A DNA stretch of 64,000 bases from a virus: IMG/VR virus record IMGVR_UViG_3300045017_000165, positions 1 through 64,000 of that record, one strand, 5' to 3'. The position numbers were made by a program, and so were the translations under genes. The notes under the pieces are model-generated. The model was not told the DNA's origin, did no database searches, and was given only the letters and a program-made list of their open reading frames with translations. Positions 40,101-64,000 of the stretch are shown here, piece after piece. Positions within the stretch are counted from its first letter, which is position 1; each line of letters starts with the position of its first letter.

Positions 40101-43100
40101 GTTGCACGGTGCCGGCGTTAATACTGTTAAACAAGGTAATAACGTCATTCTCGCACCGCTAACAGATGGTGCTGTTAAAAGACTTAGTCACGGTGAAATT
40201 AAAGAACCAGAGTTTCTTCATGGAAAAGACTTAAAAGAAAAGAAGGGTGGCTTTTTCGACCCTGCGCTTACTGGTGGTAAAGCCGGCAAGAACTACACCC
40301 ACATCGAGCTGAAGGAGTATCTGCCAAATCCAGTGTTTGAGCGCCCAATCAGATCACTCTTAAATTTAACCGCTGCCGATTACGCTGATATAGTGAGTGG
40401 CACTAAACATGTTAGTACTGAGGGTAAAGTCCTGACCACTTCCGCTAAAGGGACTCTTACTGGAGGCAACGCTATCCAGCATCTTCTATCAAAGATAGAC
40501 GTAGATAAAGAAATAGAAGCTACCACCAAAAAGCTTCCTTCTATGCGAGAAGGAAACGATCTTAACCAGTTGAGCAGAAAACTTCGGTATCTGCACGCGC
40601 TTAAGGAGCTCGATCTTAAACCTCAAGACGCGTATGTTAGAAAACTAATTCCCGTTGTTCCGCCTGAATTCCGACCCATTTATGAAACGGCTAAACGTGG
40701 TTTGCAGGTGGCGCCAGTAAATGTTCTCTACCAGAACGTTGGTATCCTAAACAAGTCTCAAGATCTCCCCGTAATGTCTTTACTCGAAGATTCTGAGAAG
40801 AAGGACTTACGTACCGAGCTTTACCACTCGACTAAGACACTCGCTGGTCTCGAAGAGATCATGCGCACAAAAGAACAGCCAATAAGAGGTTTCCTATCGC
40901 AGATCACTGGTGACACACCCAAAACCAGTTTCTTCCTCAACAAGGTCATCAATAAACGACAAGACCTAGTAGGTCGCGGCGTTATTACAGCATCTCCTGA
41001 TCTCCACATCGATCAGCTAGGTATACCCGAGAAGATGGCTTGGAAAATTTTTCATCCATTTATCATTAGAGAGTTCACTTCATCCGGTATTACTCCAGAC
41101 ATCGCGAGAAAAGAAATCGAAGAGAAAACTCCCCGAGCGAAACAGTTCCTTCAGACTGCGATGGACAAGAGAACCGTTCTAATGAATCGCGCGCCGTCAC
41201 TACACAAATTCTCTATAATGGCGTTCAAGCCGACCATCACTGATGGACTTGCTATTAAAGTGCCCCCGCTAGTTCTAAAGGGGTTTGGCGGAGACTTTGA
41301 CGGAGATTTTCAACAAAATCGCGTACTTGTTCATCTCACAGAAAAAGTTTTGCTTGAGATTGAGGAGGTACTTGGGCATAGTTACGCCAAGGAGCGCGAT
41401 GTGACCGCCAGATATAAAGAATCAGTGGTGTTAAAGAAGGGCGAAAAAGTTCTCGCTATCGATCTACAAGATTTTCCTGTCGGAGCGCTGGTAGCGACTC
41501 GTGAAGCCTCGAAAGGGCAAATAGATCTCTATGAAGCTATTCCTGGTACAAACGTTATTGCGTACGATGAGCAGAGCGGACGAATCGAGTTAAAGCCGGT
41601 GACCTATTGGTCCAAGCACTACGACCGCGAAGTAGAAATCGTTACTTTAGTGTCAGGGCGTCAAATCGTAACTGATGACGACCCCAGAGCCGTGTATGGA
41701 ATTCCAGCAGGATTTCTGTCACCTGCTAGGTTTACACCAGAACACGCCGTAGCTAAAACTGTATTAGTACCGCGTGCTATAAACATTAACCCCGTTGAGT
41801 CTATCGTAACCACGTATGTAGATCTCGAGACCGAGGAAGGGGACCTACTAGCTTTACCGCTCAACGAAAATCTTGGCTACCTGATAGGAGCCGCCGCAGG
41901 AGATGGCTGGAGTGACGACAGGCACTTCTGTCTGGCGTCAATTACTCCCGAAATTCCGGCTAAAGTTTTTGCCGCTCTAAAAGATCTCGGGCTAGTTAAA
42001 CCGGACAGTAAATTCTATAAGTCGGATCGTAAACAGGCTGGGCTGGGGGACGTTAGCTCCAAGTATTCGTGTGGCGGAGCTAGACTAGCCAAGTTCATTA
42101 AGCACAGCATCGGGCATCGAGCGAAGAATAAGCACTTACCCGAGTACTTTCTGGGTGCGAGCAGAGAGTTTAGAGAAGGGTTATTTGCTGGTTTGATGGA
42201 CACGGATGGGTCAATCTCGGTATCGAACGCAAAAGATAAAGTTTCACCGCAGTTGATGGCTAACTACAGCACTAATAGCCTTCGTTTAGCGAGAGAAATC
42301 CAGCTTCTCGCGCGAACGCTGGGGATTAGAGCTAGCATTACTGCGTCCAAAACTCCTGCGGGTAATCCATGTTGGATGATGAGCTTTTCAAACGTAGACA
42401 TCAAACAGTGGGATGGTAAGAGTATGCAACATCCCGGAAAACTAGCCAAGCTCGCTAGTATCCAAGAGATAAAGAAAACCGCCTCCACAGCTAAACTCGA
42501 TATCATACCCATCACCAAAGTGTTGGCTACGTTTATCGCTAAAACATTAGGAGCTCCAAGAACCGCTCCAACCGAACACAAAAGACTCTACGGAATTGCT
42601 AATCAGGCTGCTAAAGATGGATTCGTTTCAAGGCAGTCCATCGATGCTGTCATTGAAAAGATTTCACGCAAAGTCGTAGCCTCCCATCCCGACGGTCAAA
42701 GGTGGCTGGCACTACTAGACAATCGCGATGTCACGTGGGATCGCTGCGTATCTTTCGAGCGTACGGGTATCAAAGAAACCGGCTACGATCTCACAGTGCC
42801 AGGACACGAAACTTTCATGGCTGTCGACGGTGTCATCCTCTCTAACACAAGCACCATCCACGTGCCGACAAGCGACGAAGCCGTACGAGAATCTTTCAAG
42901 ATGCTCCCTTCACAAAATCTGTTTAAGCCCGGGACCGGGGAGTTGATGATTCAACCATCGCAAGAAAACGCGATCGGTCTTTATTTCCTTTCTCAGTCAA
43001 AGGAAGGGCGCGCCAGAATAAATGCGCTACTTCCCAAAGACCACCACATCTCAGCAGCTCTTGATAAGAAGGGGCTGGGTAGTCTCTTCAACAGTCTAGC

Positions 43101-52317: not shown

Positions 52318-55260
52318 ATGGGAGACTCAGAGTTAGATTTCTTGCGCAGCGGCAGTACTGACGAGATAGAAGCCAACAGAGCAGCTTCCAGCGATGAGAG
52401 ACTCAAATCTCTAGCCTCTCCGGAACGCGTCGCCAAAGTCATGTCTGCGCTTAAATCTGATGGCTCCACCAAGACCCTGATCAAGGCTAAGAAGTCAGAC
52501 TGGATACGAGCCCTGATCCACCTCGACGGCACTAACTTCGACTTCTCTGGACGCGACTACCTAAAACAGATCTACGATACGAAGCATCCGCATAAACTTC
52601 TTGTCACGGGGCGTCAAGTTGAAAAATGTCAACCGATTTGGTCAACTATTCACAGAAGCGATGGGGGTGAATGTCGCATAGATGAACTTCGCTTAGGGGA
52701 CTCTATCTGCGCCATGAACCAAGGGGGCATACAGACGCAGGACTTAGTGTTAGCCTCGGAATCTAACGGTGTTAAAAAGTGTCTTCGCATAAAAACTCGC
52801 CTAGGCTCTACGATTGAAGCCACGTTGAACCACCCCTTTAGAAAACTACTCACATGGGAGCAAGCCTCTAAGCTAATAGTTGGTGATAAAATCGCGGCAC
52901 TTCGCAGTGTAGGGTTTTTTGGAGATAAGCAAAACGATCTGGCGATGGTAGTGGGGCTTCTGTTTGGAGATGGAAGCTTCAGTAATAGACTCATTTCGCT
53001 GGCGTGTGGAAGAGCTCCTATCCAAGAACTATTTGAAAAAGAGTATATTAGGCTAGAGGGTATAGCGCCTAAGTTTAGTTTGTCGAAAGGCTCAAAAACA
53101 CAACGAACCTATCGAGTCAGTGTCTCTACTAAAATAGCAGCGTGGTTCTACGAGCACGATCTGATAGGTATGGTTGCAAGCATCAAAAAATTACCCGCCG
53201 AAGTTTTCTCTTACAATAAAGAGTCAACTCGAAATTTGATCCGAGGACTTTGGGCAACCGATGGGCATTGTAAGAACGTAACCTCTTCTAAGATTGATTT
53301 AGTTTACTGCTCCACTAGCGAAACACTTGTTAGACAAGTGAGACTACTACTAAGAAAGTTTGGAGTTCTTACAACACTTCGTACGTATAAGCCCCAGCGA
53401 GGACAAAAAGCATTCCTTATTAGAGTAGTCACAAGAAAATCCATAGAAGCTTTTCATCGTGACATTGGACCTATTCCAGGAAAACCATTTAATATTCCCG
53501 GGTGTGAGAGCAATAGCAATTTAGATACTGTCCCTAGAGAAGTACTCAACGTATTGAAGAAAGCAAAACGTGCTGCCGGTTATGGTGGAAGATGGGGCAG
53601 CGACAACAAATGCTTTGAGCGAGATTCAGGGTTCCGGTTTAAGTCAAATTATTGCCCAACATTTGAGAAGTTAGCTGCTGCGCAGTCTTTACTCAACAAC
53701 TCTACCATACAGAAAATCTTAGACTCGGATATTATTTGGGATGAGATTGTATCAATAGAGGATTTAGGAGACCAACCAACGTGGTCTATTCAAACCCAAA
53801 CAGAAACCTACATCTCTGATTTCATAGTCCAGCACAACTCTACAATGCTAGCTAACGAGATCATCATCAACTCGGTAGTGATACCTTATTTCAAAACTCT
53901 ATATGTATCGCCGTCGCATGATCAGACAAGACAGTTCAGCAACGGAAAGTTAAAGCCGTGGATCGAAGATAGTCCTCTTATTCAAAAGTACTTCCAGAAC
54001 TCTGCCGTATCAAAGCAGGTCTTTGAGAAGAGCATGTCAAACGGATCGATTGCGTTTCTCAGGTCAGCTTTTCTAAGTGCTGACCGAACACGCGGAATAT
54101 CTAGTGATATACTATGCTTAGACGAGATTCAGGACATTTTAACGTCAAATATTCCGGTCATTACCGAGACCTTATCGCATAGTAAGTATGGGTATAAGAT
54201 TTTCGCCGGCACTCCAAAGACTCTTGAGAATCCTATCCAGCAGTACTTTGAGATGTCTAGCATGTGCGAGTGGTTGATACCTTGTTTCGCACACTCGCCG
54301 CCGCACTGGAACTACATTGATGAGAAGAGTATCGGTAAGGACGGACCAATATGCAATAAATGCGGCAAGCCCATTAATCCTGCTGAAGGTAAGTGGATAG
54401 CATTCAATGATAGTCGAGATATTCTGGGGTTTAGGATTTCACAGATCATGGTGCCATGGATCTATCAGAATCCTCTGAAGTGGAAGGAGTTCTTGTGGAA
54501 GTACGAGAACCTTTCGAGAGGTATTTTTTATAACGAGTGCTTGGGTATTTCTTTTGACTCCGCAAGCAAGCCTATTACGCGCACTGAATTAGTTGAGTGC
54601 TGCTCGTCAAAACATCCACTACGCTATCATCCAGACTCCTTCACGCATAAGATAGATCTATTTGCCGGTGTGGATTACGGCGAGGGCTCGGACGGAACAG
54701 AACGGGGTATGAAAGGAAGGATGAAGAACGCTTCGTACACAGTTCTTACGATAGGAGTCTATCTCGACCCAACACATTTTCATTACTTATTTATGAAACG
54801 GTATACTGGAGAGGAAGCTCTCCCAGCTAACTGTATCGGTGACATTATAAATATTGCACGAGCGTTTAGGGTTAAGTGCGTTGGTGCTGACTGGGGTCAT
54901 GGATGGGGAGTTAATGAGCAACTGGAAACTGCTCTCGGAAAGTCGCGCGTAATTAAGTTTCAATACGTAGGTAATCAGCGCGAGCGTAAAAAGTTTGATG
55001 AGATAGGACTTAAATACCAACTAGGTAGAACAGAAGTGATGACAGACTTTTTTACAGCAATAAAAAACCACCACATAATTTTTCCGGCATGGGAGTCAGT
55101 TAAAGATTATCTGTGTGATATCGAACATGTTTACGCCGAGTACGGAGATGGGGGAAGGTCGCTTAAGTATGACCACAAACCATCGGAGCCTGATGACGCG
55201 CTTCACTCAATGATTTATTGTAAGGAAGCCGCGGACAACTATTTCGGTAAGCACAAATAG
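52318..55260 (+). CDS. terL: terminase large subunit, intein-containing
   Basis: Walker A GRQVEK|ST (split by the intein), RGISSDILCLDEIQD Walker B, GTPK coupling motif, nuclease GVDYG...PDDALHS. Confidence 0.88.
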   Translation: MGDSELDFLRSGSTDEIEANRAASSDERLKSLASPERVAKVMSALKSDGSTKTLIKAKKSDWIRALIHLDGTNFDFSGRDYLKQIYDTKHPHKLLVTGRQVEKCQPIWSTIHRSDGGECRIDELRLGDSICAMNQGGIQTQDLVLASESNGVKKCLRIKTRLGSTIEATLNHPFRKLLTWEQASKLIVGDKIAALRSVGFFGDKQNDLAMVVGLLFGDGSFSNRLISLACGRAPIQELFEKEYIRLEGIAPKFSLSKGSKTQRTYRVSVSTKIAAWFYEHDLIGMVASIKKLPAEVFSYNKESTRNLIRGLWATDGHCKNVTSSKIDLVYCSTSETLVRQVRLLLRKFGVLTTLRTYKPQRGQKAFLIRVVTRKSIEAFHRDIGPIPGKPFNIPGCESNSNLDTVPREVLNVLKKAKRAAGYGGRWGSDNKCFERDSGFRFKSNYCPTFEKLAAAQSLLNNSTIQKILDSDIIWDEIVSIEDLGDQPTWSIQTQTETYISDFIVQHNSTMLANEIIINSVVIPYFKTLYVSPSHDQTRQFSNGKLKPWIEDSPLIQKYFQNSAVSKQVFEKSMSNGSIAFLRSAFLSADRTRGISSDILCLDEIQDILTSNIPVITETLSHSKYGYKIFAGTPKTLENPIQQYFEMSSMCEWLIPCFAHSPPHWNYIDEKSIGKDGPICNKCGKPINPAEGKWIAFNDSRDILGFRISQIMVPWIYQNPLKWKEFLWKYENLSRGIFYNECLGISFDSASKPITRTELVECCSSKHPLRYHPDSFTHKIDLFAGVDYGEGSDGTERGMKGRMKNASYTVLTIGVYLDPTHFHYLFMKRYTGEEALPANCIGDIINIARAFRVKCVGADWGHGWGVNEQLETALGKSRVIKFQYVGNQRERKKFDEIGLKYQLGRTEVMTDFFTAIKNHHIIFPAWESVKDYLCDIEHVYAEYGDGGRSLKYDHKPSEPDDALHSMIYCKEAADNYFGKHK
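52627..53838 (+). mobile_element. canonical intein with LAGLIDADG endonuclease in the terminase Walker A motif
   Basis: 404 aa. Starts with C (CQPIWS), block B TLNHP, motifs VVGLLFGDG and LIRGLWATDG, ends QHN|S. Confidence 0.9.
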
Positions 55261-55280
55261 ATAAAAAAACTAACAGTGTT

Positions 55281-55320
55281 GTATTAGCCGACCCCAACGC
55301 GAATCGGGGTCGGCTAATAC
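55281..55320. terminator. bidirectional terminator hairpin
   Basis: GTATTAGCCGACCCC/GGGGTCGGCTAATAC 15-bp perfect stem between convergent genes. Confidence 0.75.
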
Positions 55321-55332
55321 TTTATTTACGCG

Positions 55333-55956
55333 CTAGCTTTTCTTATCATTGAAAGCTCCCAGTCTCCAGCGAGCCAACGGTACAAATACCTCGCCCGGAT
55401 CTGGTAAGCGGTGTGAGTAGCATTGCGCACGCATTTCGTCGTAGTCAGAGTGCATAAGATTATCTGAACACCAACCCACTTTTAATAGCTCGGCGTTCAA
55501 TCCAGCGCTTGGATAATTGTTATCTGCTGACACACTAAAGAGTAACACTGGCAATATACTCCAGCTATTTGCGAGACAGATCTTTAAGATTTCTCTTAAG
55601 ATATGATCGCTTTCATAGCGTGAGCTAGAGCGTATAGCATTATCAAATTCACCATAAGATATAAGCTCCCCTCTAGCAGCTGTGAGTAAAAGAACATTAA
55701 GACCAGCTGCTATTCTGAAGCCTCTGAGTTCTCTTGCTCTTTCAATACCAACTTGGGTTGCTTTCTTATTGTCGTAGCCTGCTTTTTCTTCGCAGTCTGC
55801 GAGTGCTTTCTTATATGCATCGAACGATTTAATAGTAAGCATATAGCTTCCTTCATTTGATCCCTTATTTTTAAAACTGCGCCACATCGCGGGATCTTTT
55901 CCAGTGGCACACCTTTGGATATTTGGACCGATATAGCGCTCGGTTCCCACACGCAT
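55333..55956 (-). CDS. hypothetical protein
   Basis: 207 aa ORF in a - strand operon. Confidence 0.5.
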   Translation of the reverse strand: MRVGTERYIGPNIQRCATGKDPAMWRSFKNKGSNEGSYMLTIKSFDAYKKALADCEEKAGYDNKKATQVGIERARELRGFRIAAGLNVLLLTAARGELISYGEFDNAIRSSSRYESDHILREILKICLANSWSILPVLLFSVSADNNYPSAGLNAELLKVGWCSDNLMHSDYDEMRAQCYSHRLPDPGEVFVPLARWRLGAFNDKKS

Positions 55957-55962
55957 TTGTTA

Positions 55963-56397
55963 TTACTCACTATCGGAAGACTCAGAGAGTTTAAGCTTCA
56001 TAAGTTCTTCGTCTAGTGTAGGAGCAGCTTCAAACCCTTCGATATTACCGCGCTTGTCGCAGCACTTACCTTTTGGTTTAGGTTCGTTTGGCGACAGCCC
56101 AACATATATACGAAGTGTTCGATACTTTTCCTCTGTATTGGCTTTATCTATGTTCAGATTTTTCAGTGCCTGTTCGAGCTCAGCTTTTTCAGCAATAAGA
56201 CGTTTTTCTCTCGCTTGAACTTCTTCAACGTCTATGTGAACAACGGCACCGCTTTTAGTGATAGCCATGCCAGGTTTAATGTGTTCTTCCTGCATAGCAT
56301 TTTCCATTGTGCGCATCTCTTTATACACTGGCTGAGATGCACACGCGCTTAGGATAACAAGAGACACTGACGCAACCATTAGTGTTATGTTTTTCAT
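55963..56397 (-). CDS. lipoprotein with coiled coil
   Basis: AGGAGG RBS, signal peptide and lipobox LSAC. Confidence 0.7.
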   Translation of the reverse strand: MKNITLMVASVSLVILSACASQPVYKEMRTMENAMQEEHIKPGMAITKSGAVVHIDVEEVQAREKRLIAEKAELEQALKNLNIDKANTEEKYRTLRIYVGLSPNEPKPKGKCCDKRGNIEGFEAAPTLDEELMKLKLSESSDSE

Positions 56398-56466
56398 AAC
56401 ATCCTCCTATTTGTTTCAGTTACTTGTTTAATTAACTCGACCTGACTGTGTTTAAATCTTTAATTA

Positions 56467-56512
56467 AGACGTACCAACGAGCTGATGAACAGCAGTACTC
56501 GTGGGTACGTCT
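56467..56512 (-). terminator. hairpin closing the 3' end of pentamer array 1
   Basis: AGACGTACC-A-ACGAG / CTCGT-G-GGTACGTCT (14 of 15 paired), 5 nt from the end of the array. Confidence 0.6.
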
Positions 56513-56517
56513 CATTT

Positions 56518-56770
56518 CACTACGACACGTCACTTGACATTACTTTAACCTCACGGAACTTTACCTTACTTCACATGACGGCACCACGACCATACTTTAC
56601 TCGACCATACGTTACCATGACTTTACTCTACTCAGCAGTACCATACGGTGCTTCACAGTACCCGCACGCCACTCGACTAAACGGTACCATACCTCCACAA
56701 CACAGAACGGCACAAAACCCCACCCCACATTACCAATACTGGACTGGACAGGACGACACATAACCCTTAC
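56518..56770 (-). ncRNA. periodic pentamer array 1 (RNA sense GY-NNN units); putative guide RNA array for the Cas7-like protein
   Basis: The + strand parses without gaps into 41 pentamers and 8 hexamers, all ending in RC (47 AC, 2 GC). Starts 27 nt after the stop of the RAMP gene. Confidence 0.8.
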
Positions 56771-56797
56771 TGAAAGCCATCCATGGCAAACAAGTAG

Positions 56798-57589
56798 TTA
56801 CGCAGATTCGATCGTGCACTTGAACTGTCCGTAGCCTGCGTTTCTCCACTGACCTAAGCCCGACACTCTTCCGTATGAGAAGAGTTTCTTTAGAGCTTCT
56901 TCAGTGAGCGGGGAATTCTCAAGCACGAGAAGTGTGAACTTGAGAGCGGCTCCGGATTCAATGCACTCGCTTTTAGCTACAGAGACGCGTGGACCTTGAG
57001 CTGTCATAGCTCTCAGTGAACGCTCACAGTACTTGATTGAGCCATCAGCACTCTTCATCACGTCTTTATCAAACGAGATGAATTGTTGCTCAATTGTTAC
57101 GTGTTGATTAATGATCGATTCCGTATAGCTTGCTGAGTTGAGGATCGTACCATTCTTTTTAGGAAGAGTACGAGCTACCGCTTCAGCAGCTGCTTTTAGG
57201 AATCCTTTAATCATGTGATCTCCGATACACGGCATTCCTGCCTTGTCGCGGAAGAACACTGTAACGCCTCGAAGTTCTTGCTCGTCGAGAGTTTCTTTTA
57301 AAGATTCGAGTTCACCTTTGATAGCAAGTTCGCGTTCTTCTGAGGTGAACTTTCTACCCACGAGAGTTTCAAGCTTATCGAGAAGCTTATCGGTTTCAAG
57401 TTTACCGCGCTCTTCGGTGATCTGTAGAGCTTCTAGGTACTTATTAATCTCAGCGTTGTAGCTACCTTTCTCTTGAATAAGCTTACGCTGCTTTTGAATG
57501 ATATGTTGTTCGTGAATCGACGGATCCGCCGGATTCGTGCCCAAAATGTCACGTGTGAATGACAAGACTACTTTATATTCTTTAAACAT
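56798..57589 (-). CDS. stand-alone Cas7/RAMP-superfamily protein
   Basis: N-terminal strand YKVVLSFTRDILGT, P.IGDHMIKGFLK.A helix, ERSLRA...RVSVAKSECI thumb region, and C-terminal G-rich loop YG...GLGQWRNAGYGQF. Confidence 0.8.
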   Translation of the reverse strand: MFKEYKVVLSFTRDILGTNPADPSIHEQHIIQKQRKLIQEKGSYNAEINKYLEALQITEERGKLETDKLLDKLETLVGRKFTSEERELAIKGELESLKETLDEQELRGVTVFFRDKAGMPCIGDHMIKGFLKAAAEAVARTLPKKNGTILNSASYTESIINQHVTIEQQFISFDKDVMKSADGSIKYCERSLRAMTAQGPRVSVAKSECIESGAALKFTLLVLENSPLTEEALKKLFSYGRVSGLGQWRNAGYGQFKCTIESA

Positions 57590-57610
57590 TTTAATACGCT
57601 TTCAAATAAA

Positions 57611-57650
57611 AGCGGTCACGCTCTACACTAGTTCATAGAGCGTGACCGCT
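57611..57650 (-). terminator. strong hairpin plus U-tract directly upstream of the Cas7-like gene
   Basis: AGCGGTCACGCTCTA/TAGAGCGTGACCGCT 15-bp perfect stem, followed by a T-rich tract on the - strand. Confidence 0.65.
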
Positions 57651-57661
57651 AGTTTTAGGTT

Positions 57662-57883
57662 TTACAGTACTTCTGGCTTAGATTTCTTGCCTGGCTTTTT
57701 ATTAGCTGCGGCAGGATTCTTAGCCGGTCTTCCACGCTTCTTTACGGTGCTTGGCGGCGTTGCATCGTCGTTAGCCATAAAGCGATCGTAAGCTTTCACA
57801 GCTACTGCGCCTGCTGCTGCGGAAGCGACGTAAGGAAGTGCTTTCTTAGTTACTGACCATACTGATGATAGAAAACCACTCAT
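57662..57883 (-). CDS. small basic protein with AT-hook-like KKRGRP motif
   Basis: AGGAGG RBS, amphipathic N-terminus and Lys-rich tail. Confidence 0.6.
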   Translation of the reverse strand: MSGFLSSVWSVTKKALPYVASAAAGAVAVKAYDRFMANDDATPPSTVKKRGRPAKNPAAANKKPGKKSKPEVL

Positions 57884-57991
57884 GGGATCCTCCTAATGAG
57901 TTTGTTTATGTTGTTGATTGTTGGTTGTTGCTAGCAACATTGTCTCGACCAACATTCGAGACAATACTTTAAAAACTTTTTCACTAATAAT

Positions 57992-58020
57992 CTTATACCC
58001 GAAAATGGCTATTTTTATCC
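57992..58020 (-). promoter_or_regulatory. conserved phage promoter GGATAAA-N14-GGTATAAG (upstream of the Cas7-like operon)
   Basis: Same spacing as the other copies. Confidence 0.65.
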
Positions 58021-58055
58021 AATAGTTAGATATTATACCCTATGGGGGTATAAAA

Positions 58056-58089
58056 GGTGTGCGCATAACAGATAGCTTATGCGCACACC
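58056..58089 (-). terminator. terminator hairpin
   Basis: GGTGTGCGCATAA/TTATGCGCACACC followed by TTTT on the - strand. Confidence 0.7.
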
Positions 58090-58099
58090 CAGATTCAAA

Positions 58100-58339
58100 T
58101 TACTCTGAGAACATCTCAGCAAGCTTACTTTTAGCTTCAGCTTGATGTTCTGCGGGCACTTCTTTTAGATTTATGTTTACGGTGACAGTTCCATCTTCGT
58201 TAGTGATAGCTTTACCAACCATGTAGCTGTCACCACCTAGATCAAGTCTTATTGACATCTTCTTAATATAACCGCTTGAAAACGCCATAAGAGTCACGTC
58301 ACTAACAATCTCTCTTACCACTTCTCTTAACCTAATCAT
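58100..58339 (-). CDS. hypothetical protein
   Basis: A GGAGG RBS supports the start at 58339. Confidence 0.55.
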   Translation of the reverse strand: MIRLREVVREIVSDVTLMAFSSGYIKKMSIRLDLGGDSYMVGKAITNEDGTVTVNINLKEVPAEHQAEAKSKLAEMFSE

Positions 58340-58407
58340 ATTCCGTACCTCCATAATGAAGTGGGTGCGGATTAGAAGTCTCCGCACCCGCTGACATGAT
58401 TCTGGTA

Positions 58408-59223
58408 TTACTCGGCATTTATTGAGATACCGGTAGTACCTGTTAACGAGGTCATAAGTGCAGGATCTGAACTAAAGTCTACACTCGTCACTGTAGCTCC
58501 ATAGAACCCCGTGGGGGCAGCTATGTCTACACAGGTAGATGAGTCGTAGGCTTTATAGGATCTAACAGTCCTTGACATTATGTCGTTAGTTAAAGCGACA
58601 TAATATACACCGTTATTGTTCAGCAGGACTTTGAGCATAGACCCAGCATCAGGATCATTATGACCTGAGGTTAGTCGGTTAGTCCTGACCACAGGAGTTC
58701 CGACGCACCCCAAACTAGGGTAGTAGATACGGGCACGAAGTCCGTACTCACTACCGAACTCGTTCTTATTTATGTTGACTACGAACCCACCAGTAGTATG
58801 CCAAAACGCAATGCCAACTGCGCTTTGACTAATTAGAGTTCCCATTACAACACCGAGCGAGTTCCTTACTACGAACCGAGGAGCAGCTGTACCAGCAGGA
58901 CCCTGGGCACCTTGAGCGCCCTGAGCACCTGTAGCTCCAACCGCACCCGCAGCACCTGTAGCTCCTGTGGCGCCTTGTGGTCCTTGAGGACCTTGAGCGC
59001 CATTAGATACTACAGCAGTGTTACCGCTTGGATCTGTGATACGAACGCCGTCTGACAGCTGAGTAATGGTGATTGAACCAACACTCATACTTTCACCGAC
59101 GCTAAGGTTAGTAGCCGCACCGTCCACTGGCATGACTGTTACGGATTCACTTACACAACCTGAGAGAACAGCTACTGAAGTTACAATCAAACTACCAACT
59201 GACATCATCATGAGCTTATTCAT
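58408..59223 (-). CDS. collagen-repeat lipoprotein
   Basis: Lipobox VLSGC and about 12 Gly-X-Y triplets (GAQGPQGPQGATGATG...). Confidence 0.75.
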   Translation of the reverse strand: MNKLMMMSVGSLIVTSVAVLSGCVSESVTVMPVDGAATNLSVGESMSVGSITITQLSDGVRITDPSGNTAVVSNGAQGPQGPQGATGATGAAGAVGATGAQGAQGAQGPAGTAAPRFVVRNSLGVVMGTLISQSAVGIAFWHTTGGFVVNINKNEFGSEYGLRARIYYPSLGCVGTPVVRTNRLTSGHNDPDAGSMLKVLLNNNGVYYVALTNDIMSRTVRSYKAYDSSTCVDIAAPTGFYGATVTSVDFSSDPALMTSLTGTTGISINAE

Positions 59224-59268
59224 AACGTCCTACCTTTCATGATTACATTGATTGGATCGCGACGAGCT

Positions 59269-59670
59269 TCACAGTGAACGCACGACATGTGCGAACTTAC
59301 TGAGCGCATCGTTTGTTTCTTGCAGTAAGCGTCTTCTGAGAATCTTTTGTAGTAGAGGTAGCTCTGAGATATATTTTTTGTGAGCGATTAGAGTATTTGC
59401 TAATTGCTCAGTCAAATATTCTTTAGCTATCTTTACTGCTAGTACGTCGTCGACCTTAGAGGTATCAAATTCTCTATCGTCGTCTAAAAGTGCTAGCTTA
59501 AAATTCTCAGCAGTTTGCTCAGCACATCCGATTACAAGTTCGTCTGTGCTTTTTAGTTTCACTAGATCTACAATCGTCTTCGCGACAAGATCACCCAACA
59601 GTGATTTTTCTGACATTCTTTTTCGTTGGAGTGTCTGGCTTGGCGACGCGTGGTTTTTTACGTTCGACAT
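59269..59670 (-). CDS. hypothetical protein
   Basis: Helical ORF. Start is uncertain because it overlaps 59591..60106. Confidence 0.5.
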   Translation of the reverse strand: MSNVKNHASPSQTLQRKRMSEKSLLGDLVAKTIVDLVKLKSTDELVIGCAEQTAENFKLALLDDDREFDTSKVDDVLAVKIAKEYLTEQLANTLIAHKKYISELPLLQKILRRRLLQETNDALSKFAHVVRSL

Positions 59671-60106
59671 TTTGCAGTCCTCCTTTTTCTTCGATTGATT
59701 TGATGTAGTGTCTTACGGCTACGATTACCCCGCCCGCTACTTGCTTCATTTTGGAAATGATAAGTAGTTTGGCAAAGTGCGCAGCCTTGTCAGCACCTAC
59801 ATCGTCTTTGTTAATGATCGATCCCATCACGAAGAACATCGCCCCGTACTTGAGCTTACGGAGCGTTTCGATATGAAGACCATTAGGGCGGTCATCTATC
59901 TGTGACGGGAACATCTTTACGAAAACAGCCGCGAATTTCTCGGTAGTTGCCGATAGGGTCTCGAGCGTGTTCACGACTGAGTTCATTAGCCCTTCATTAC
60001 TTTCATTGTCAGCCAGTTTAGCGGCGGACTCTGAAAAGGCTTCAAGAGACTCTGCGAATACGTGCATTGAGTCTAGTTCGTCTTTGCTTAGTTTTAATGT
60101 TTTCAT
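59591..60106 (-). CDS. hypothetical protein
   Basis: GAGGTG RBS, downstream of a promoter motif. Confidence 0.6.
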   Translation of the reverse strand: MKTLKLSKDELDSMHVFAESLEAFSESAAKLADNESNEGLMNSVVNTLETLSATTEKFAAVFVKMFPSQIDDRPNGLHIETLRKLKYGAMFFVMGSIINKDDVGADKAAHFAKLLIISKMKQVAGGVIVAVRHYIKSIEEKGGLQNVERKKPRVAKPDTPTKKNVRKITVG

Positions 60107-60259
60107 AGGTCACCTCTTTGGTTAATAGTTAAAGTTTTAGTTTGGATACACGACCGCCCAACGCTAGCACCGTTTAGATGCAGCGTTAGACGGGGTCTAA
60201 GCTTTATGTAAAGGGAGGAAAAAATAGCTTAAGGGAATAAGTATTTTTTACCTATTAAA

Positions 60260-60288
60260 CATATACCCTTAAAAGGGCTGTTTTTGCC
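60260..60288 (-). promoter_or_regulatory. conserved phage promoter GGCAAAA-N14-GGTATATG
   Basis: Same spacing as the other copies. Confidence 0.65.
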
Positions 60289-60348
60289 TGTATTTTTGAT
60301 GGGTTAGTGGAGGTCTAAAAAGGGTGTTTTTTAGGTATTCAGATGGAC

Positions 60349-60549
60349 TTATTTGGGGGTTGATTTAAAGCCCTTGAGGAAGCCTGAAACGTTATAGTTC
60401 TTTGGAGCGTTTATGGCATCTATATCGGCATAGCTAAGCCCTAGATTTTTGAGTCTTCCCCACTCTCTTGTGGAGCGAAGCTTTTTTGTAAGAGCGGGGT
60501 TTTTAGCGAATATTGATCTTAGAAGCTGGTATGCACCTGGTTTAGACAT
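60349..60549 (-). CDS. small basic protein
   Basis: 66 aa ORF. Confidence 0.4.
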   Translation of the reverse strand: MSKPGAYQLLRSIFAKNPALTKKLRSTREWGRLKNLGLSYADIDAINAPKNYNVSGFLKGFKSTPK

Positions 60550-60609
60550 GAAGGTAATTTTATCGCAATACCTAAAAAAGAGCCAGAGGGGAGCCGGCTC
60601 TTTCGGTTA

Positions 60610-60903
60610 TTAGTTCATCCAATTCTTACTGGGTATGACGAATGTTTTAACAGCATTATCTGAATCATCGGGGGATGATTGTTCTACTGCTGTACTCGCC
60701 TTGGCTGTCAAAGATTTGAACGTAGTAACGATCTTACTGAAATCTTTACTTAGTTTTTTAAAATCCCTGAGAGTTTTATTACTCAGTACTAACTGGCGCT
60801 TCATTTCAATCGCCTGACTACGAAGTTTTAAAATCTGAAGCATCAGATAGATGCATGTCAGTCCTAAAACAACTAATGAGACGCTGAAAACTTTGTTATA
60901 CAT
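60610..60903 (-). CDS. N-terminal TM plus coiled-coil protein
   Basis: An AAGGA RBS supports the ATG at 60903. TM segment VFSVSLVVLGLTCIYLML. Confidence 0.55.
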   Translation of the reverse strand: MYNKVFSVSLVVLGLTCIYLMLQILKLRSQAIEMKRQLVLSNKTLRDFKKLSKDFSKIVTTFKSLTAKASTAVEQSSPDDSDNAVKTFVIPSKNWMN

Positions 60904-60924
60904 ACGATTCCTTCCCAATAACAA

Positions 60925-61458
60925 GTAACGTTACCGTACCTTACCTTACGAAACCCCAACGCAACGCTACTGAACTCCACATAACTATACCACCACACAA
61001 CATAATCACCACTACCGCGCAACACATTACATTACCCCGCCAAGACAGTGCATTACTTCACCGTACTAAAGCTAAGCCCTACCGCACAGTACCCTACCCG
61101 AACCGGTTTCTACCGGAACACAACACTACTAAACTTAACTACACCATACCGTCACGTTACATGACGAAACTGCACTGACGCAGTACATTGCTTTACCGAG
61201 ACTTTACTACACTCAACGACACTTCACGCTACCCAACCGTGACTTTACTGCACCCTACTACACATCACGATACCTCACTGTGGCTTTACCCCACGACACA
61301 CCACCCAATCAAACATCACCATACCGCACGGGACTCTACCGAGACGCTGCCATGCTGGACGTTACTTTGCCATAGCAATACTGCACAACACGTTACCCGA
61401 CCTTACCATAGCATCACCTTACAACACGAGACCTTGCGTCACTGTAGCATCGCAGTAC
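60925..61458 (-). ncRNA. periodic pentamer array 2 (GY-NNN units, ~100 units)
   Basis: Same NNNRC pentamer / YNNNRC hexamer grammar as array 1, with a few degenerate units. Begins at the stop codon of 61458..61709. Confidence 0.8.
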
Positions 61459-61709
61459 TAATGTGCAGTATCGTTACGGACTTCGTCTGAACTAAACGAT
61501 GTCGCCGCAACGTAATTATTTTTTTCCTGTGGTGGATAAACAAGAAAAACCGTCCTGCCGTTTAGTACGACTGGAAGCATAGTGTGTATTCCTGTCGTAG
61601 CTACTTTGGAAGATTCTTCCAAAATATCCGCAAGAGCTCTTAGCTGCTCTGGCGAAGTTTCAAATAATTGCCCGTGTACAACTTGTCCCGTAGTTTTAAA
61701 TTTTTCCAC
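61458..61709 (-). CDS. hypothetical protein immediately upstream of array 2
   Basis: GGGGAG RBS, GTG start, 83 aa. Confidence 0.55.
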   Translation of the reverse strand: MEKFKTTGQVVHGQLFETSPEQLRALADILEESSKVATTGIHTMLPVVLNGRTVFLVYPPQEKNNYVAATSFSSDEVRNDTAH

Positions 61710-61727
61710 GACAAATCTCCCCTAAAT

Positions 61728-61762
61728 AAAAAAGGGAGCCGTCTAAAAGATAGACGACTCCC
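61728..61762 (-). terminator. intrinsic terminator
   Basis: GGGAGTCGTCTA/TAGACGGCTCCC followed by a T run on the - strand. Confidence 0.7.
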
Positions 61763-61813
61763 AAGTTGGTTTTCACTACTTTAAACTTATACCATTTAAA
61801 TTAATGGTTTAGT

Positions 61814-62134
61814 TCACACTGTCTGATCAATCAGAGATGCCACCAGATATCTATATTCGGTCTTTAATGCCTCGGAATACGGTGACGCTAAAATCTTTAC
61901 TCTGACTAAAACTAGCTCACTAAGCCTGAGTCCTAATGGAGCTAAGAATTGCACTTTAGCGTTAGTTGTTCCTGATGATTCCACTCCTATTATGAGCGGG
62001 TATTGAAATAGGACTGGCTCGTCTAAATCAACGTTTTCTATCGCGCAATGCATGAACGCCATGATGGTTTGCCCATCATCTAGCTGTGCGATGACGACTG
62101 GATTATTTTTCAATGCGTCTACTATACTAGTCAT
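61814..62134 (-). CDS. hypothetical protein, tandem paralog of 62127..62561
   Basis: VIAQLDDGQTIMAFMH..IENVDL....LFQYP shared with the neighbour. Confidence 0.65.
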   Translation of the reverse strand: MTSIVDALKNNPVVIAQLDDGQTIMAFMHCAIENVDLDEPVLFQYPLIIGVESSGTTNAKVQFLAPLGLRLSELVLVRVKILASPYSEALKTEYRYLVASLIDQTV

Positions 62135-62561
62135 TTCGATCCCCCTTATTTAGTTTAGTTTTGTTCCTTAGGTTGGCTTCGTTTTCTTCGATTTGTTTTA
62201 GGTAGTTGTACACTGCAGATCTGTAGGCTTCTTTTGCGCACTGCGAGCTAGGTGAGTCCAGCCCCGCAACTTTCCTGAGCGAGAACTCACTTAAGCAGCG
62301 CCCGAAAGGACGGTCTAACACCGAGTCTAATTCTGCGTCATCAGAGTCGGGTATTTCGTAATTTAAGAACGGTGCGGTTCTAACGGACTCTTCAGCTGAT
62401 ATAACTTCTATAGGATATTGAAATAAGATAGCATCGTTTAGATCAACGTTTTCCATCTCTCCGTGCATAAACGCCATAAAGCTTTTCCCGTTGTCCAGAT
62501 GAGCAATCACGACGTGGAGTTGTTTCAGTATATCTTTTTGATCGGGTTGTTTTTTATTCAT
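62127..62561 (-). CDS. hypothetical protein, tandem paralog of 61814..62134
   Basis: VIAHLDNGKSFMAFMH..MENVDL....LFQYP. Confidence 0.65.
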   Translation of the reverse strand: MNKKQPDQKDILKQLHVVIAHLDNGKSFMAFMHGEMENVDLNDAILFQYPIEVISAEESVRTAPFLNYEIPDSDDAELDSVLDRPFGRCLSEFSLRKVAGLDSPSSQCAKEAYRSAVYNYLKQIEENEANLRNKTKLNKGDRND

Positions 62562-62572
62562 TTGTGTTTCCT

Positions 62573-64000
62573 TTATTTAGTCCAATAAGGCAGAAGTATG
62601 CCTTCAACTTCCATAGGCACTCTTGAGAGAAATTTCTGACTCTGCTCGATGCCTATCTTTTTATGAAGTTCGTGCGCTTCTTCTGCGTCTTTTTTAGCTA
62701 CATCTAAGACAACTTCGTCATAGATGCTGTTATACATTCTGGCGTCGTAGCCTCGCTTTTTGAATTCTTTGCGAAGCTCGTACATCCAGCACTTGGTCAT
62801 CTCTACGTTGGTAGATTGCACCATGAAGTTTGCGGCTTCTCGTTCAATCTGCGCGTAGATATTTTGTCTCTTCTCATCCACAAGCCTACTTACTTGCCTA
62901 TTGATCACGACTTTGTCTAGATCTCCGATTGCGATACCCTTGTAAGATTTCATGACTTCTTTATACATTTCACCATGGATCTTAGCAGTGTTTGGCGGCA
63001 ACCATCTTCTGCGCCTACCATTAATGTTACTCATGGATAGCTGAGATCTTCCTAAGCGTTTACAATTGTCGAGCCAGTGAATGGCTCCACGGAAAGTCTG
63101 CTTGTACTTCTGTAGAAGCTCGTGGCACTCTTCAATTGTAATTGCATAACCCGCCGAATTAAGTAGCAAGTGTAACCTACCAGCACCACCTCCGTATGCG
63201 AGCATGAAGTTGATAGTTTTAGCGGGAGTTCTTAGTTTCGCGTTCGTGTTCTTTTTCGTTACCTCGCAACCAAACAGCATTGAGGCTACATAGCAATGAA
63301 AGTCGACGCCACTGTTAAAACCCCTGACCATCAATTCGTCTTCCGATTGATCCGCAAGAATTCTTAATTCCGCTCCACTCAGATCAACAGTGGAGATTAG
63401 TCTTGATGGATCCGTTGTGAACGCGTGACGGAATCTTTTATCTCTTGGAATGTTTAGAACATTGATTCCCCCTCTACCAGCAACACGACCGGTTTCTGTG
63501 CCATATTGCCAGAACGCCGGGTGTATTCTACCTGTGGCTGGATTTATGGCGTCTATAAAGTTTTGCCCGTATGCAGATATGGCTCGCATCGCTTCTCTAT
63601 AGTTATCGAGCGCCGGAATCATGGGGTGCTTAATTTTTTTACGCACCTCCTTACCAGTGCTGGTGATCATCTCACCGTCTACAGTGATGCCGTTCCTCTG
63701 CATGGCATAAAGAATGGTTGGCTGGGAGTTGTAATTAATGTCCAGCACTCCAAATAGGTCTCGATCAAAGAATGGTTCAAAGAACGGTTCTAGATTTCGT
63801 TTAGCCTCCTCCGCCTTATCTTGGTTAAACTTCATGACGTCTTTCCAAGCATCGGTGTCAAGTTTTTGACCGAAGTAGGTGATGTCTGCAAACGCTGGGA
63901 GGGCGTTACACTCAATTAGGAAGGTGGGCATAATACCCTCCTTAAGAAGACGGTCTCCTATCTTTTCTCTGAGCGGAATAAGGTCGGCGGTGTCTTCAGC
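62573..64000 (-). CDS. polA: family A DNA polymerase (5' part outside the window)
   Basis: TETGR, NVLNIPR, motif A DLSGAELRILA, motif B RTPAKTINFMLAYG, motif C IYDEVV. Frame stays open to the window edge (AEDT, ExoIII-like). Confidence 0.92.
   Translation of the reverse strand, partial: AEDTADLIPLREKIGDRLLKEGIMPTFLIECNALPAFADITYFGQKLDTDAWKDVMKFNQDKAEEAKRNLEPFFEPFFDRDLFGVLDINYNSQPTILYAMQRNGITVDGEMITSTGKEVRKKIKHPMIPALDNYREAMRAISAYGQNFIDAINPATGRIHPAFWQYGTETGRVAGRGGINVLNIPRDKRFRHAFTTDPSRLISTVDLSGAELRILADQSEDELMVRGFNSGVDFHCYVASMLFGCEVTKKNTNAKLRTPAKTINFMLAYGGGAGRLHLLLNSAGYAITIEECHELLQKYKQTFRGAIHWLDNCKRLGRSQLSMSNINGRRRRWLPPNTAKIHGEMYKEVMKSYKGIAIGDLDKVVINRQVSRLVDEKRQNIYAQIEREAANFMVQSTNVEMTKCWMYELRKEFKKRGYDARMYNSIYDEVVLDVAKKDAEEAHELHKKIGIEQSQKFLSRVPMEVEGILLPYWTK

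What the first reader, a model, noticed from the sequence alone, without database searches (positions are those of the whole stretch)
56467..57650. Stand-alone Cas7/RAMP gene followed by a 5-nt-periodic non-coding array: candidate RNA-guided system with a non-contiguous guide code
Seen in sequence: the 263-aa protein has RAMP hallmarks, including the C-terminal G-rich loop GLGQWRNAGYGQF. Starting 27 nt after its stop, 253 nt parse without a gap into 49 units. The RNA reads GUAAGG GUUAU GUGUC GUCCU GUCCA GUCCA GUAUUG GUAAU GUGGG..., a fixed GY dinucleotide alternating with three variable bases. A 14/15-bp hairpin closes the 3' end. No cas1/2/3/5/6 gene or repeat-spacer array is in the window. 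Established knowledge: Cas7-family proteins polymerise along guide RNA with a fixed nucleotide step (6 nt in class 1 CRISPR). Inference: each subunit grips one GY and displays the variable bases, which together specify a gapped target, for example for anti-competitor-phage or gene-silencing activity. From memory (not verifiable here), phage Cas7-like 'VIPR' systems with GGY/NN pentamer RNAs have been reported. In this array the base before GY is not conserved in pentamers, so it may be a GY/NNN variant with a different code.
Basis: partly seen in the sequence, partly recalled or inferred. Interest (0 to 1): 0.97.

Follow-up and report, generated by a model that had tools for sequence, protein, structure and literature searches.

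The report
Phage VIPR system, GY-NNN guides
A lake-water phage carries a small Cas7-like protein gene and two long arrays of five-letter guide-RNA repeats; this is a real copy of the VIPR RNA-guided DNA-silencing systems first described in 2026, with an unusual repeat spelling but not a new kind of system.

Summary
A 263-aa gene (56798-57589, minus strand) has a Cas7/Csm3 RAMP fold. Starting 27 nt after its stop, 253 nt parse into 49 G-Y-N-N-N units. A strong hairpin closes the tract. All 80 homolog loci fetched carry a 5-nt-periodic tract within 700 nt of the gene.

This is a VIPR system (Vipr protein plus vrRNA array; bioRxiv 10.64898/2026.04.26.720920). A profile of the family aligns full length to the reference SUSP1 Vipr (hhalign 86-92%). 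The two SUSP1 residues that read the first G of GGY are replaced here (H17 to T18, D177 to Q247). That fits the GY/NNN unit, which the paper already lists as "YNNNG".

Beyond the given coordinates:
- A second array of about 103 units lies at 60925-61457.
- Both arrays are punctuated every 5-9 units by a 6-nt unit. These probably delimit 31-46-nt guides.
- No vap partner gene and no cas genes were found.

Targets and the reading rule stay unknown. Pattern scans gave only chance-level hits, and no RNA data exist.

This scan has already noted VIPR-like loci in about 370 other genomes. Verdict: a new member of a known kind, of moderate interest.

The parts
57611..57650 (-). Intrinsic-terminator-like hairpin just upstream of vipr. 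It ends the preceding transcription unit, so vipr plus array 1 look like a unit of their own.
   Evidence: 17-bp stem with 9 GC pairs, followed by TTTATTTGAA.
56798..57589 (-). vipr gene. It encodes a 263-aa stand-alone RAMP/Cas7-like protein with an RRM core, a thumb beta-hairpin (about residues 187-210, with invariant R190, R193, G199 and R201) and the G-loop GLGQWRNAGYG (244-254). It also has an enlarged helical insertion (about residues 23-107) where SUSP1 Vipr has its small alpha-helical bundle.
   Evidence: AF2 model with pLDDT 78.8. VIA-align Z 12.9 to Csm3 6ae2_B; Foldseek E 4e-8 to type VII Cas7 and to Csm3. PADLOC Cas7_IIId E 2e-4. hhalign to SUSP1 Vipr 92% / 86%. PDB profile hit to 36pp_D 'SUSP1 Vipr protein' at E 0.013.
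56771..56797 (-). 27-nt leader between the vipr stop codon and the first repeat unit.
   Evidence: Read directly from the sequence.
56518..56770 (-). vrRNA array 1: 49 GY-NNN units. Six-nt units split it into segments of 6, 8, 6, 9, 6, 8 and 5 units (31-46 nt each).
   Evidence: The array body is not significantly structured (z -1.7). Open frames across it are explained by composition.
56465..56514 (-). 3' hairpin that closes array 1. It is probably a terminator or 3'-end cap.
   Evidence: MFE -25.8 kcal/mol, z -4.2. Arrays of close relatives end in unrelated GC-rich hairpins.
60925..61457 (-). vrRNA array 2: about 103 units with the same GY-NNN grammar, on the same strand, 3.3 kb upstream of vipr. 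It starts right after the stop codon of an 83-aa ORF and ends at the ribosome-binding site of the next ORF. It contains two paralogous 41-nt (8-unit) segments.
   Evidence: TRF finds a 41-nt period at 61195-61289.
61458..61709 (-). 83-aa ORF of unknown family, probably co-transcribed with array 2. Its role is unknown and it is not shown to be a vap gene.
   Evidence: No Pfam or PADLOC hit. No homolog in related loci. A terminator-like hairpin lies upstream at 61734-61762.

Best explanation
This is a phage-encoded VIPR system.

The proposed mechanism is as follows.
- The 263-aa Vipr protein is a stand-alone Cas7-like RAMP. It is inferred to polymerise along transcripts of the two arrays, one protomer per 5-nt unit.
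- Each protomer pair sequesters the fixed G-Y. These correspond to G2 and Y3 of the published GGY.
- The following variable bases are presented for gapped base pairing with double-stranded DNA.
- Binding silences transcription of the target, most likely genes of competing phages or other mobile elements.

In this protein clade the first G of GGY is not read, so the unit is GY-NNN (the published 'YNNNG' form).

The arrays have no per-guide tails. A 6-nt unit occurs every 5-9 units. Its extra base is G in 76% and A in 24% of cases, which makes a full GGY at the next unit. These units most likely mark the borders of successive 31-46-nt guides, as in the published 'staggered' arrays.

Shown here: the fold, the homology, the gene-array linkage, the array grammar and the punctuation.

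Inferred by homology only: RNA binding, DNA targeting, silencing, the reading rule and guide processing.
For: Fold:
- The RAMP/Cas7 fold covers the whole protein. Z is 12.9 to Csm3, and the top 30+ matches are all Cas7/Csm3/Cmr4/Csf2-type chains.
- BFVD phage proteins annotated as 'RAMP superfamily' match at E 7e-20.

Homology to the reference Vipr:
- hhalign of a 23-sequence family profile against SUSP1 Vipr gives 92% probability and E 6.5e-7 over 182 columns. A 55-sequence profile gives 86%.
- A profile search of PDB sequences lists 36pp_D 'SUSP1 Vipr protein'.
- The G-loop aligns GLGQWR with GVGDWR. W178/R179 and M72 are kept.
- The two residues that the cryo-EM paper says read G1 (H17, D177) are T18 and Q247 here. 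This matches the loss of the first G in the repeat.

Linkage of gene and array:
- 80 of 80 IMG/VR homolog loci have a 5-nt-periodic tract within 700 nt of the gene.
- 87 of 89 tracts lie on the gene's strand.

Array behaviour:
- The G and Y positions are fixed and positions 3-5 vary.
- All 6 array SNPs seen in other lake samples fall on variable positions.
- No coding signal.

Context:
- The contig is a phage, with a terminase, PolA and tail-fibre-like genes.
- No Cas1, no second RAMP and no CRISPR array.

Punctuation:
- The coefficient of variation of segment length is 0.29, against 0.82 for random placement (P < 2e-4).
- A2 holds 41-nt paralogous segments.
- Related gut-phage arrays share hexamer-delimited segments in mosaic order.

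Published mechanism.
Against: - No RNA data exist for this phage, so transcription, processing and co-purification are untested.
- No natural target was found under any rule tried, so neither DNA targeting nor the skip rule is supported directly.
- There is no vap partner gene and no conserved 3' tail or pseudoknot per guide. Both are typical of the characterised type II systems.
- Sequence similarity to SUSP1 Vipr is remote. hhalign gives 86-92%, not above 95%, and the thumb region aligns inconsistently between the two profiles.
- The helical insertion (residues 24-107) is modelled with low confidence.
- The contig is only about 54% complete, so partner genes could lie outside it.
Confidence: 0.82

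Rival explanations
1. The parts are the same, but the code or the substrate differs. Either the protein-RNA filament reads all three variable bases (contiguous triplets or another skip length), or it targets RNA rather than DNA. In that case GY-NNN would be a mechanistically distinct branch and not merely a relaxed GGY-NN.
For: - Three positions per unit are variable, and all three differ between paralogous segments and between samples.
- Both G1-reading residues of SUSP1 are replaced.
- The closest solved folds are RNA-targeting type III Csm3/Cmr4 and type VII Cas7.
- The alpha-helical region that holds the skipped target base in SUSP1 is much enlarged here.
Against: - Triplets taken as codons show no stop-codon avoidance: 4 seen against 6.4 expected.
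- The NN+1 patterns scanned would also have caught contiguous NNN targets, and none stood out. At the hits found, the third base matched at chance level.
- W248, R249 and M126, the equivalents of the G2/Y3 pocket residues, are kept. This argues for the same grip geometry.
Confidence: 0.12
2. It is a VIPR system used for regulation of the phage's own genes or of host genes, with timing or takeover as the purpose and not inter-phage conflict.
For: - Both arrays sit in early or middle-gene-like minus-strand units between small ORFs.
- No competitor target was identified.
- Array 2 lies away from vipr, inside another operon.
Against: - No self-target rose above unit-shuffled controls under ten pairing rules.
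- The published systems also lack self-targets and aim at satellites or prophages.
- Host targets could not be tested because the host is unknown.
Confidence: 0.05
3. The periodic tracts are not guide RNAs. They would be a simple satellite, a DNA structural element or a translated repeat peptide that merely lies next to an unrelated RAMP-like gene.
For: - Long open frames cross both arrays on the opposite strand (92 and 100 aa).
- No expression data exist.
Against: - Open frames of that length arise in 16-31% of column-preserving shuffles, and 5-nt periodicity is incompatible with codon structure.
- The variable letters differ between units, so it is not a microsatellite.
- Linkage to the gene is 80 of 80 across distant homologs, with strand agreement in 87 of 89 tracts.
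Confidence: 0.01

Closest known systems
Type II VIPR of Escherichia phage SUSP1 (Vipr ALH47069.1, vap1, four vrRNAs; bioRxiv 10.64898/2026.04.26.720920, .720927, 10.64898/2026.10.15.759431; PDB 36pp)
   Same: - Phage-encoded stand-alone RAMP with an RRM core, thumb and G-loop containing W-R.
- Pentanucleotide-repeat RNA genes beside the gene, on its strand.
- Arrays both upstream and downstream of vipr.
- No cas genes and no self-targets.
   Different: - The unit is GY-NNN, not GGY-NN.
- H17 and D177 are replaced by T18 and Q247.
- The protein is 263 aa against 195 aa, owing to an enlarged helical insertion.
- The arrays are continuous, 253 and 533 nt long and punctuated by 6-nt units. SUSP1 instead has discrete vrRNAs of about 100 nt, each with its own leader and pseudoknot tail, and no 6-nt units.
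- No vap gene is recognisable.
VIPR variants named in the same preprint: vrRNAs with 'YNNNG' repeats, and 'staggered arrays with overlapping vrRNAs' (methods section on type classification; fig. S18 legend)
   Same: - A YNNNG repeat is the cyclic permutation of GY-NNN.
- The arrays here have no spacers or tails between guides, so the end of one would be the start of the next, as that legend describes.
   Different: - Only the text of the preprint could be read, not the figures or tables. It is therefore unknown which of the seven types this is, or whether the regular +1 (6-nt) punctuation seen here is what 'staggered' means.
- The preprint says the staggered form was not among those confirmed by small-RNA sequencing.
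Class 1 CRISPR backbone subunits: Csm3/Cmr4 (type III), Cas7 of type VII, Csf2 (type IV)
   Same: - Same fold (Z 10-13).
- Same G-loop motif at the C-terminus.
- The expected polymerisation along a guide with a fixed nucleotide step and thumb-induced base flipping.
   Different: - No CRISPR repeat-spacer array, no Cas1/2/5/6/10/11 and no second RAMP in the contig.
- The step is 5 nt, not 6 nt.
- The guide information is interleaved with fixed letters, not contiguous.

Membership tests
VIPR (Vipr + vrRNA) | Vipr protein has a RAMP fold with RRM core, glycine-rich loop and thumb | tested here: met
   AF2 model. Z 12.9, rmsd 2.6 over 141 residues to Csm3 6ae2_B; Foldseek E 4e-8. G-loop at 244-254; beta-hairpin 187-210 with invariant arginines.
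VIPR (Vipr + vrRNA) | Sequence homology to a characterised Vipr (SUSP1) | tested here: met
   hhalign gives 92% (E 6.5e-7, 182 columns) and 86% (E 5e-6) with two family profiles. PDB profile hit to 36pp_D at E 0.013. The similarity is remote but full-length and motif-consistent.
VIPR (Vipr + vrRNA) | Stand-alone, non-CRISPR context (no cas operon, no CRISPR array) | tested here: met
   No Cas1 or further RAMP HMM hit in the 84.7-kb contig. TRF finds no repeat-spacer array. Caveat: the contig is about 54% complete.
VIPR (Vipr + vrRNA) | Adjacent tandem pentanucleotide repeats with fixed and hypervariable positions, on the gene's strand | tested here: met
   The link is conserved in 80 of 80 homolog loci.
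VIPR (Vipr + vrRNA) | Canonical GGY/NN (YNNGG) repeat consensus | tested here: not met
   The base before G-Y is G in only 18-27% of pentamers. The unit fits the alternative 'YNNNG' form that the preprint accepts.
VIPR (Vipr + vrRNA) | Each vrRNA ends in an invariant structured 3' tail (a pseudoknot in the SUSP1 clade) | tested here: not met
   There is only one hairpin, at the end of array 1, and none after array 2. The only internal borders are 6-nt units. The preprint describes other architectures without tails.
VIPR (Vipr + vrRNA) | Accessory vap gene next to vipr (typical, not universal) | tested here: not met
   Neighbouring ORFs have no Pfam, PHROG or PADLOC family and no homolog in related loci. 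The upstream 73-aa ORF is separated from vipr by a terminator.
VIPR (Vipr + vrRNA) | Encoded by a virus or provirus (majority of systems) | tested here: met
   IMG/VR viral contig with terminase, PolA and tail-fibre-like genes.
VIPR (Vipr + vrRNA) | Array is transcribed and the RNA co-purifies with Vipr | not testable with these tools
   Only DNA runs of lake-water metagenomes hold the stretch.
VIPR (Vipr + vrRNA) | Gapped recognition of dsDNA with a one-nucleotide skip | tested here: inconclusive
   Exact-pattern scans of IMG/VR and GTDB genomes gave none or chance-level hits.
Class 1 CRISPR-Cas effector (Cas7/Csm3 backbone) | Cas7-type RAMP fold | tested here: met
Class 1 CRISPR-Cas effector (Cas7/Csm3 backbone) | Associated CRISPR repeat-spacer array and partner cas genes (Cas5/6/10/11, Cas1-2) | tested here: not met
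   This is therefore not a CRISPR-Cas locus.

The most novel reading that the evidence does not exclude
This Q-W-R G-loop clade of Vipr proteins no longer reads the first G. Under the novel reading, it uses a different code from the published one, reading three bases per 5-nt unit or using another skip length. It would also make its guides as tail-less 31-46-nt pieces, cut or measured at the regular 6-nt units. Together these would be a second, distinct grammar and biogenesis route for noncontiguous guide RNAs.
Probability: 0.15. Interest if true: 0.65.

Novelty: new member of a known kind. Interest (0 to 1): 0.35.

Why it matters
VIPR is a very recent class (preprints of April to October 2026), and only type II systems of E. 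coli and Pseudomonas phages have been characterised.

This locus documents a freshwater-phage member of a very large clade. A profile search finds 2,630 representatives at 50% identity.

Three features make the clade useful for study.
- The protein's G1-reading residues are replaced and the RNA grammar is relaxed to GY-NNN in step. This is a natural example of protein and RNA grip changing together, and it could guide engineering of the scaffold.
- The regular 6-nt punctuation is a clean system for asking how tail-less arrays are cut into guides.
- The mosaic sharing of punctuated segments among relatives is a way to ask how such arrays gain new guides.

It does not change the known picture of what VIPR is.

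Tried and rejected
Target search:
- A 9-unit guide of array 1 under the published rule (two bases after GY, one skip) gave two identical IMG/VR contigs. Neither the flanks nor the third base matched, so this is chance level.
- The same guide with positions 4-5 as the reading pair gave 0 hits.
- A 12-unit guide of array 2 gave 0 hits in IMG/VR and 0 in GTDB genomes.
- Two paralogous 8-unit guides gave 16 and 13 loci, which is the chance number. All the array-2 guide X hits were in frame with ORFs, but the ORFs are unrelated to each other. The in-frame bias is explained by the codon-like purine at position 3.
- Ten pairing rules tested against the phage's own genome gave nothing above shuffled controls.
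- Comparing dinucleotide composition with codon positions did not discriminate between rules.

Expression: no RNA holder was listed for the stretch. Contigs from other lake samples only showed the same phage at low depth.

Known RNA families: no hammerhead or any other Rfam family occurs in 55000-62600.

Partner gene: no conserved neighbour was found. The 73-aa upstream ORF with a KKRGRPAK (AT-hook-like) tail was considered as a vap and rejected, because a terminator separates it from vipr and it has no homologs in related loci.

Coding reading of the arrays: rejected.

Not attempted: complex prediction was not used, because RNA cannot be included.

Not found: Foldseek against the PDB copy did not list the SUSP1 Vipr structure, which was probably released after that copy's cut-off.

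Full report
**What is there**

On the minus strand an ORF runs from 57589 to 56798 and encodes 263 aa. It is preceded by a strong terminator-like hairpin at 57650-57611. Twenty-seven nucleotides after its TAA stop, a 253-nt tract begins (56770-56518). Its lag-5 autocorrelation is 0.50, against about 0.23 at neighbouring lags.

A dynamic-programming parse gives 49 units, 42 of 5 nt and 7 of 6 nt. In the pentamers, position 1 is G in all units and position 2 is T in 91% and C in 5%. Positions 3-5 vary, and position 3 is purine-rich. The tract runs into a hairpin at 56514-56465 that folds far better than shuffles (z -4.2). The array body itself is not significantly structured.

Scanning the whole 84.7-kb contig, only two tracts pass the periodicity filter, and shuffles never give anything comparable. 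The second tract lies outside the finding's coordinates. It spans 61457-60925 on the same strand, with about 103 units of the same grammar. It fills the gap between the stop codon of an 83-aa ORF and the ribosome-binding site of the next ORF.

**The protein**

Sequence searches give only weak RAMP signals:
- Pfam RAMPs at E 0.03.
- The Csm4 G-loop in PDB.
- PADLOC Cas7_IIId at E 2e-4.

An AlphaFold2 model built on 37 homologs has mean pLDDT 78.8, and the core is above 90. It matches Cas7-type backbone subunits over its whole length:
- VIA-align gives Z 12.9 to Csm3 (6ae2_B). More than 30 further Csm3, Cmr4, type VII Cas7, Csf2 and Cas7-11 chains score above Z 8.
- Foldseek gives E 4e-8.

Residues 24-107 form a low-confidence helical insertion. 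It is absent from the roughly 197-aa relatives. It sits where SUSP1 Vipr has the small helical bundle that holds the skipped target base.

**Is the gene tied to the array?**

A profile-guided scan of IMG/VR returned more than 568 relatives. I kept 80 loci at 28-51% identity.
- Every one has a 5-nt-periodic tract within 700 nt of the gene. About 70 have it directly downstream and about 10 upstream.
- 87 of 89 tracts are on the gene's strand.
- Three more loci from metagenomes behave the same way.

The family is very large. A profile search finds 2,630 representatives at 50% identity with E <= 1e-3.

The open frames that cross the arrays on the other strand are what column-preserving shuffles give in 16-31% of trials. 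They have no real homologs.

**What it is**

The class exists in print. VIPR systems consist of a stand-alone RAMP (Vipr) plus vrRNAs made of GGY/NN pentamers. They are mostly phage-encoded. They recognise dsDNA by pairing only the NN of each unit and skipping every third target base, and they silence competing mobile elements (10.64898/2026.04.26.720920). Structures are in 10.64898/2026.04.26.720927, and the biology of SUSP1 against its satellite is in 10.64898/2026.10.15.759431.

I located the reference Vipr in phage SUSP1 (KT454805.2, ALH47069.1) and compared it with profiles of the window's family.
- hhalign gives a full-length alignment at 92% probability (E 6.5e-7) with 23 diverse sequences, and 86% with 55.
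- A profile search of PDB sequences lists 36pp_D 'SUSP1 Vipr protein'.

Membership is therefore supported by fold, remote homology, context and array linkage.

**Why GY-NNN and not GGY-NN**

The cryo-EM paper states which residues contact each fixed base:
- G1 is read by H17 and D177.
- G2 is held by R138 and W178.
- Y3 is held by E71, M72, R179 and neighbouring G-loop residues.

I checked the SUSP1 numbering against the record. In the alignment H17 corresponds to T18 and D177 to Q247, while W178, R179 and M72 are kept as W248, R249 and M126. Q-W-R is nearly invariant across the family.

Both G1 contacts are thus replaced and the G2/Y3 contacts are retained. This fits a unit in which only G-Y stays fixed. 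It is an inference from alignment, not a structure. The thumb region aligns differently with the two profiles, so I make no claim about R138.

The preprint's methods already list 'NNNGG, YNNNG and NNNNG' repeats as alternative vrRNAs. The spelling is therefore a known variant. In the more distant gut-phage relatives the second letter is mostly C or A, not T.

**Second-level structure**

Both arrays are punctuated by 6-nt units. The segments between them are 6, 8, 6, 9, 6 and 8 units long in array 1, and mostly 5-8 units in array 2. That is 31-46 nt per segment.

The spacing is far more regular than random placement. The coefficient of variation is 0.29 against 0.82, with P < 2e-4 for the window alone and the same for 121 segments across the clade. 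The extra base is G in 76% and A in 24% of cases, which creates a full GGY at the start of the next segment. That segment's first unit tends to be GTA or GTG.

Array 2 contains two adjacent 41-nt segments that are 79% identical and differ only at variable positions. In a set of related gut phages, hexamer-delimited segments recur in different combinations and orders, like cassettes. SUSP1 arrays have no such units and carry a tail after each vrRNA.

I read the segments as individual tail-less guides. This is probably the 'staggered arrays' of the preprint's fig. S18 legend, but the figure could not be seen and no RNA ends are available.

**Context**

- The contig is a lake-water phage. It encodes a terminase carrying an intein, a family A polymerase and a collagen-like fibre protein.
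- There is no Cas1, no second RAMP and no CRISPR array.
- None of the ORFs around vipr or array 2 has a known family or a homolog in related loci. No vap gene can be named.
- Low-depth contigs of the same phage in other lake samples carry eight differences over 7.3 kb. Six lie in the arrays, all at variable positions. The depth is low and the six come from two contigs, so this is only a hint.

**Targets**

I could not find any target.
- Exact-pattern scans under the published rule, which would also catch contiguous-triplet targets, gave none or chance numbers of hits.
- Hits had no agreement at the third base, no matching flanks and no shared gene family.
- An alternative reading pair gave nothing.
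- Ten pairing rules against the phage's own genome gave nothing above shuffles.

The code therefore remains open. Conservation of the G2/Y3 pocket favours the published NN-plus-skip rule, with the fifth base unread.

**Verdict**

It is a new member of a known, very recently published class.

What is specific to this locus:
- The coupled protein and RNA change at the G1 position.
- The regular 6-nt punctuation without tails.
- Two arrays totalling about 150 units.
- An enlarged helical insertion in the protein.
- The absence of a vap gene.

Noticed in passing
window 52318-55260 (+): The terminase large subunit (980 aa) is interrupted by an intein with a LAGLIDADG homing-endonuclease domain. Pfam hits are LAGLIDADG_3, Intein_splicing and Hint ahead of the GpA_ATPase part.
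   Followed up: no
window 57662-57883 (-): A 73-aa ORF just upstream of the vipr terminator ends in a basic tail with an AT-hook-like KKRGRPAK motif. It has no family hit and no homolog in related loci.
   Followed up: partly
window 61195-61289 (-), inside array 2: Two adjacent 41-nt (8-unit) segments are 79% identical and differ only at variable positions. This looks like guide duplication followed by divergence.
   Followed up: partly
P0121 (458 aa) and P0122 (432 aa), from the representatives search: The two best profile hits are twice the usual length and match the Vipr profile in two stretches. They appear to be tandem double-Vipr fusions.
   Followed up: no
L010, L013, L018 and related gut-phage loci (IMG/VR sample 3300045988), arrays just downstream of the gene: In these distant relatives the 6-nt units are preceded by a recurring two-unit motif close to GCAAC GGAAT. 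This leaves only 3-4 fully variable units per segment. Segments are shared between phages in mosaic order.
   Followed up: partly
L053:4390-4530: A block of about 45 nt of the array is repeated three times almost exactly. This is a recent segment amplification inside a vrRNA array.
   Followed up: no
window 37177-44844 (+): A 2,555-aa ORF. Earlier notes of this scan read it as a single-chain beta-beta' RNA polymerase with an intein. It was not examined here.
   Followed up: no
window 61734-61762 (-) and about 61786: A strong terminator-like hairpin lies between a promoter-like GGTATAAG box and the small ORF that leads into array 2. This is a possible attenuator-type arrangement controlling array 2.
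   Followed up: no
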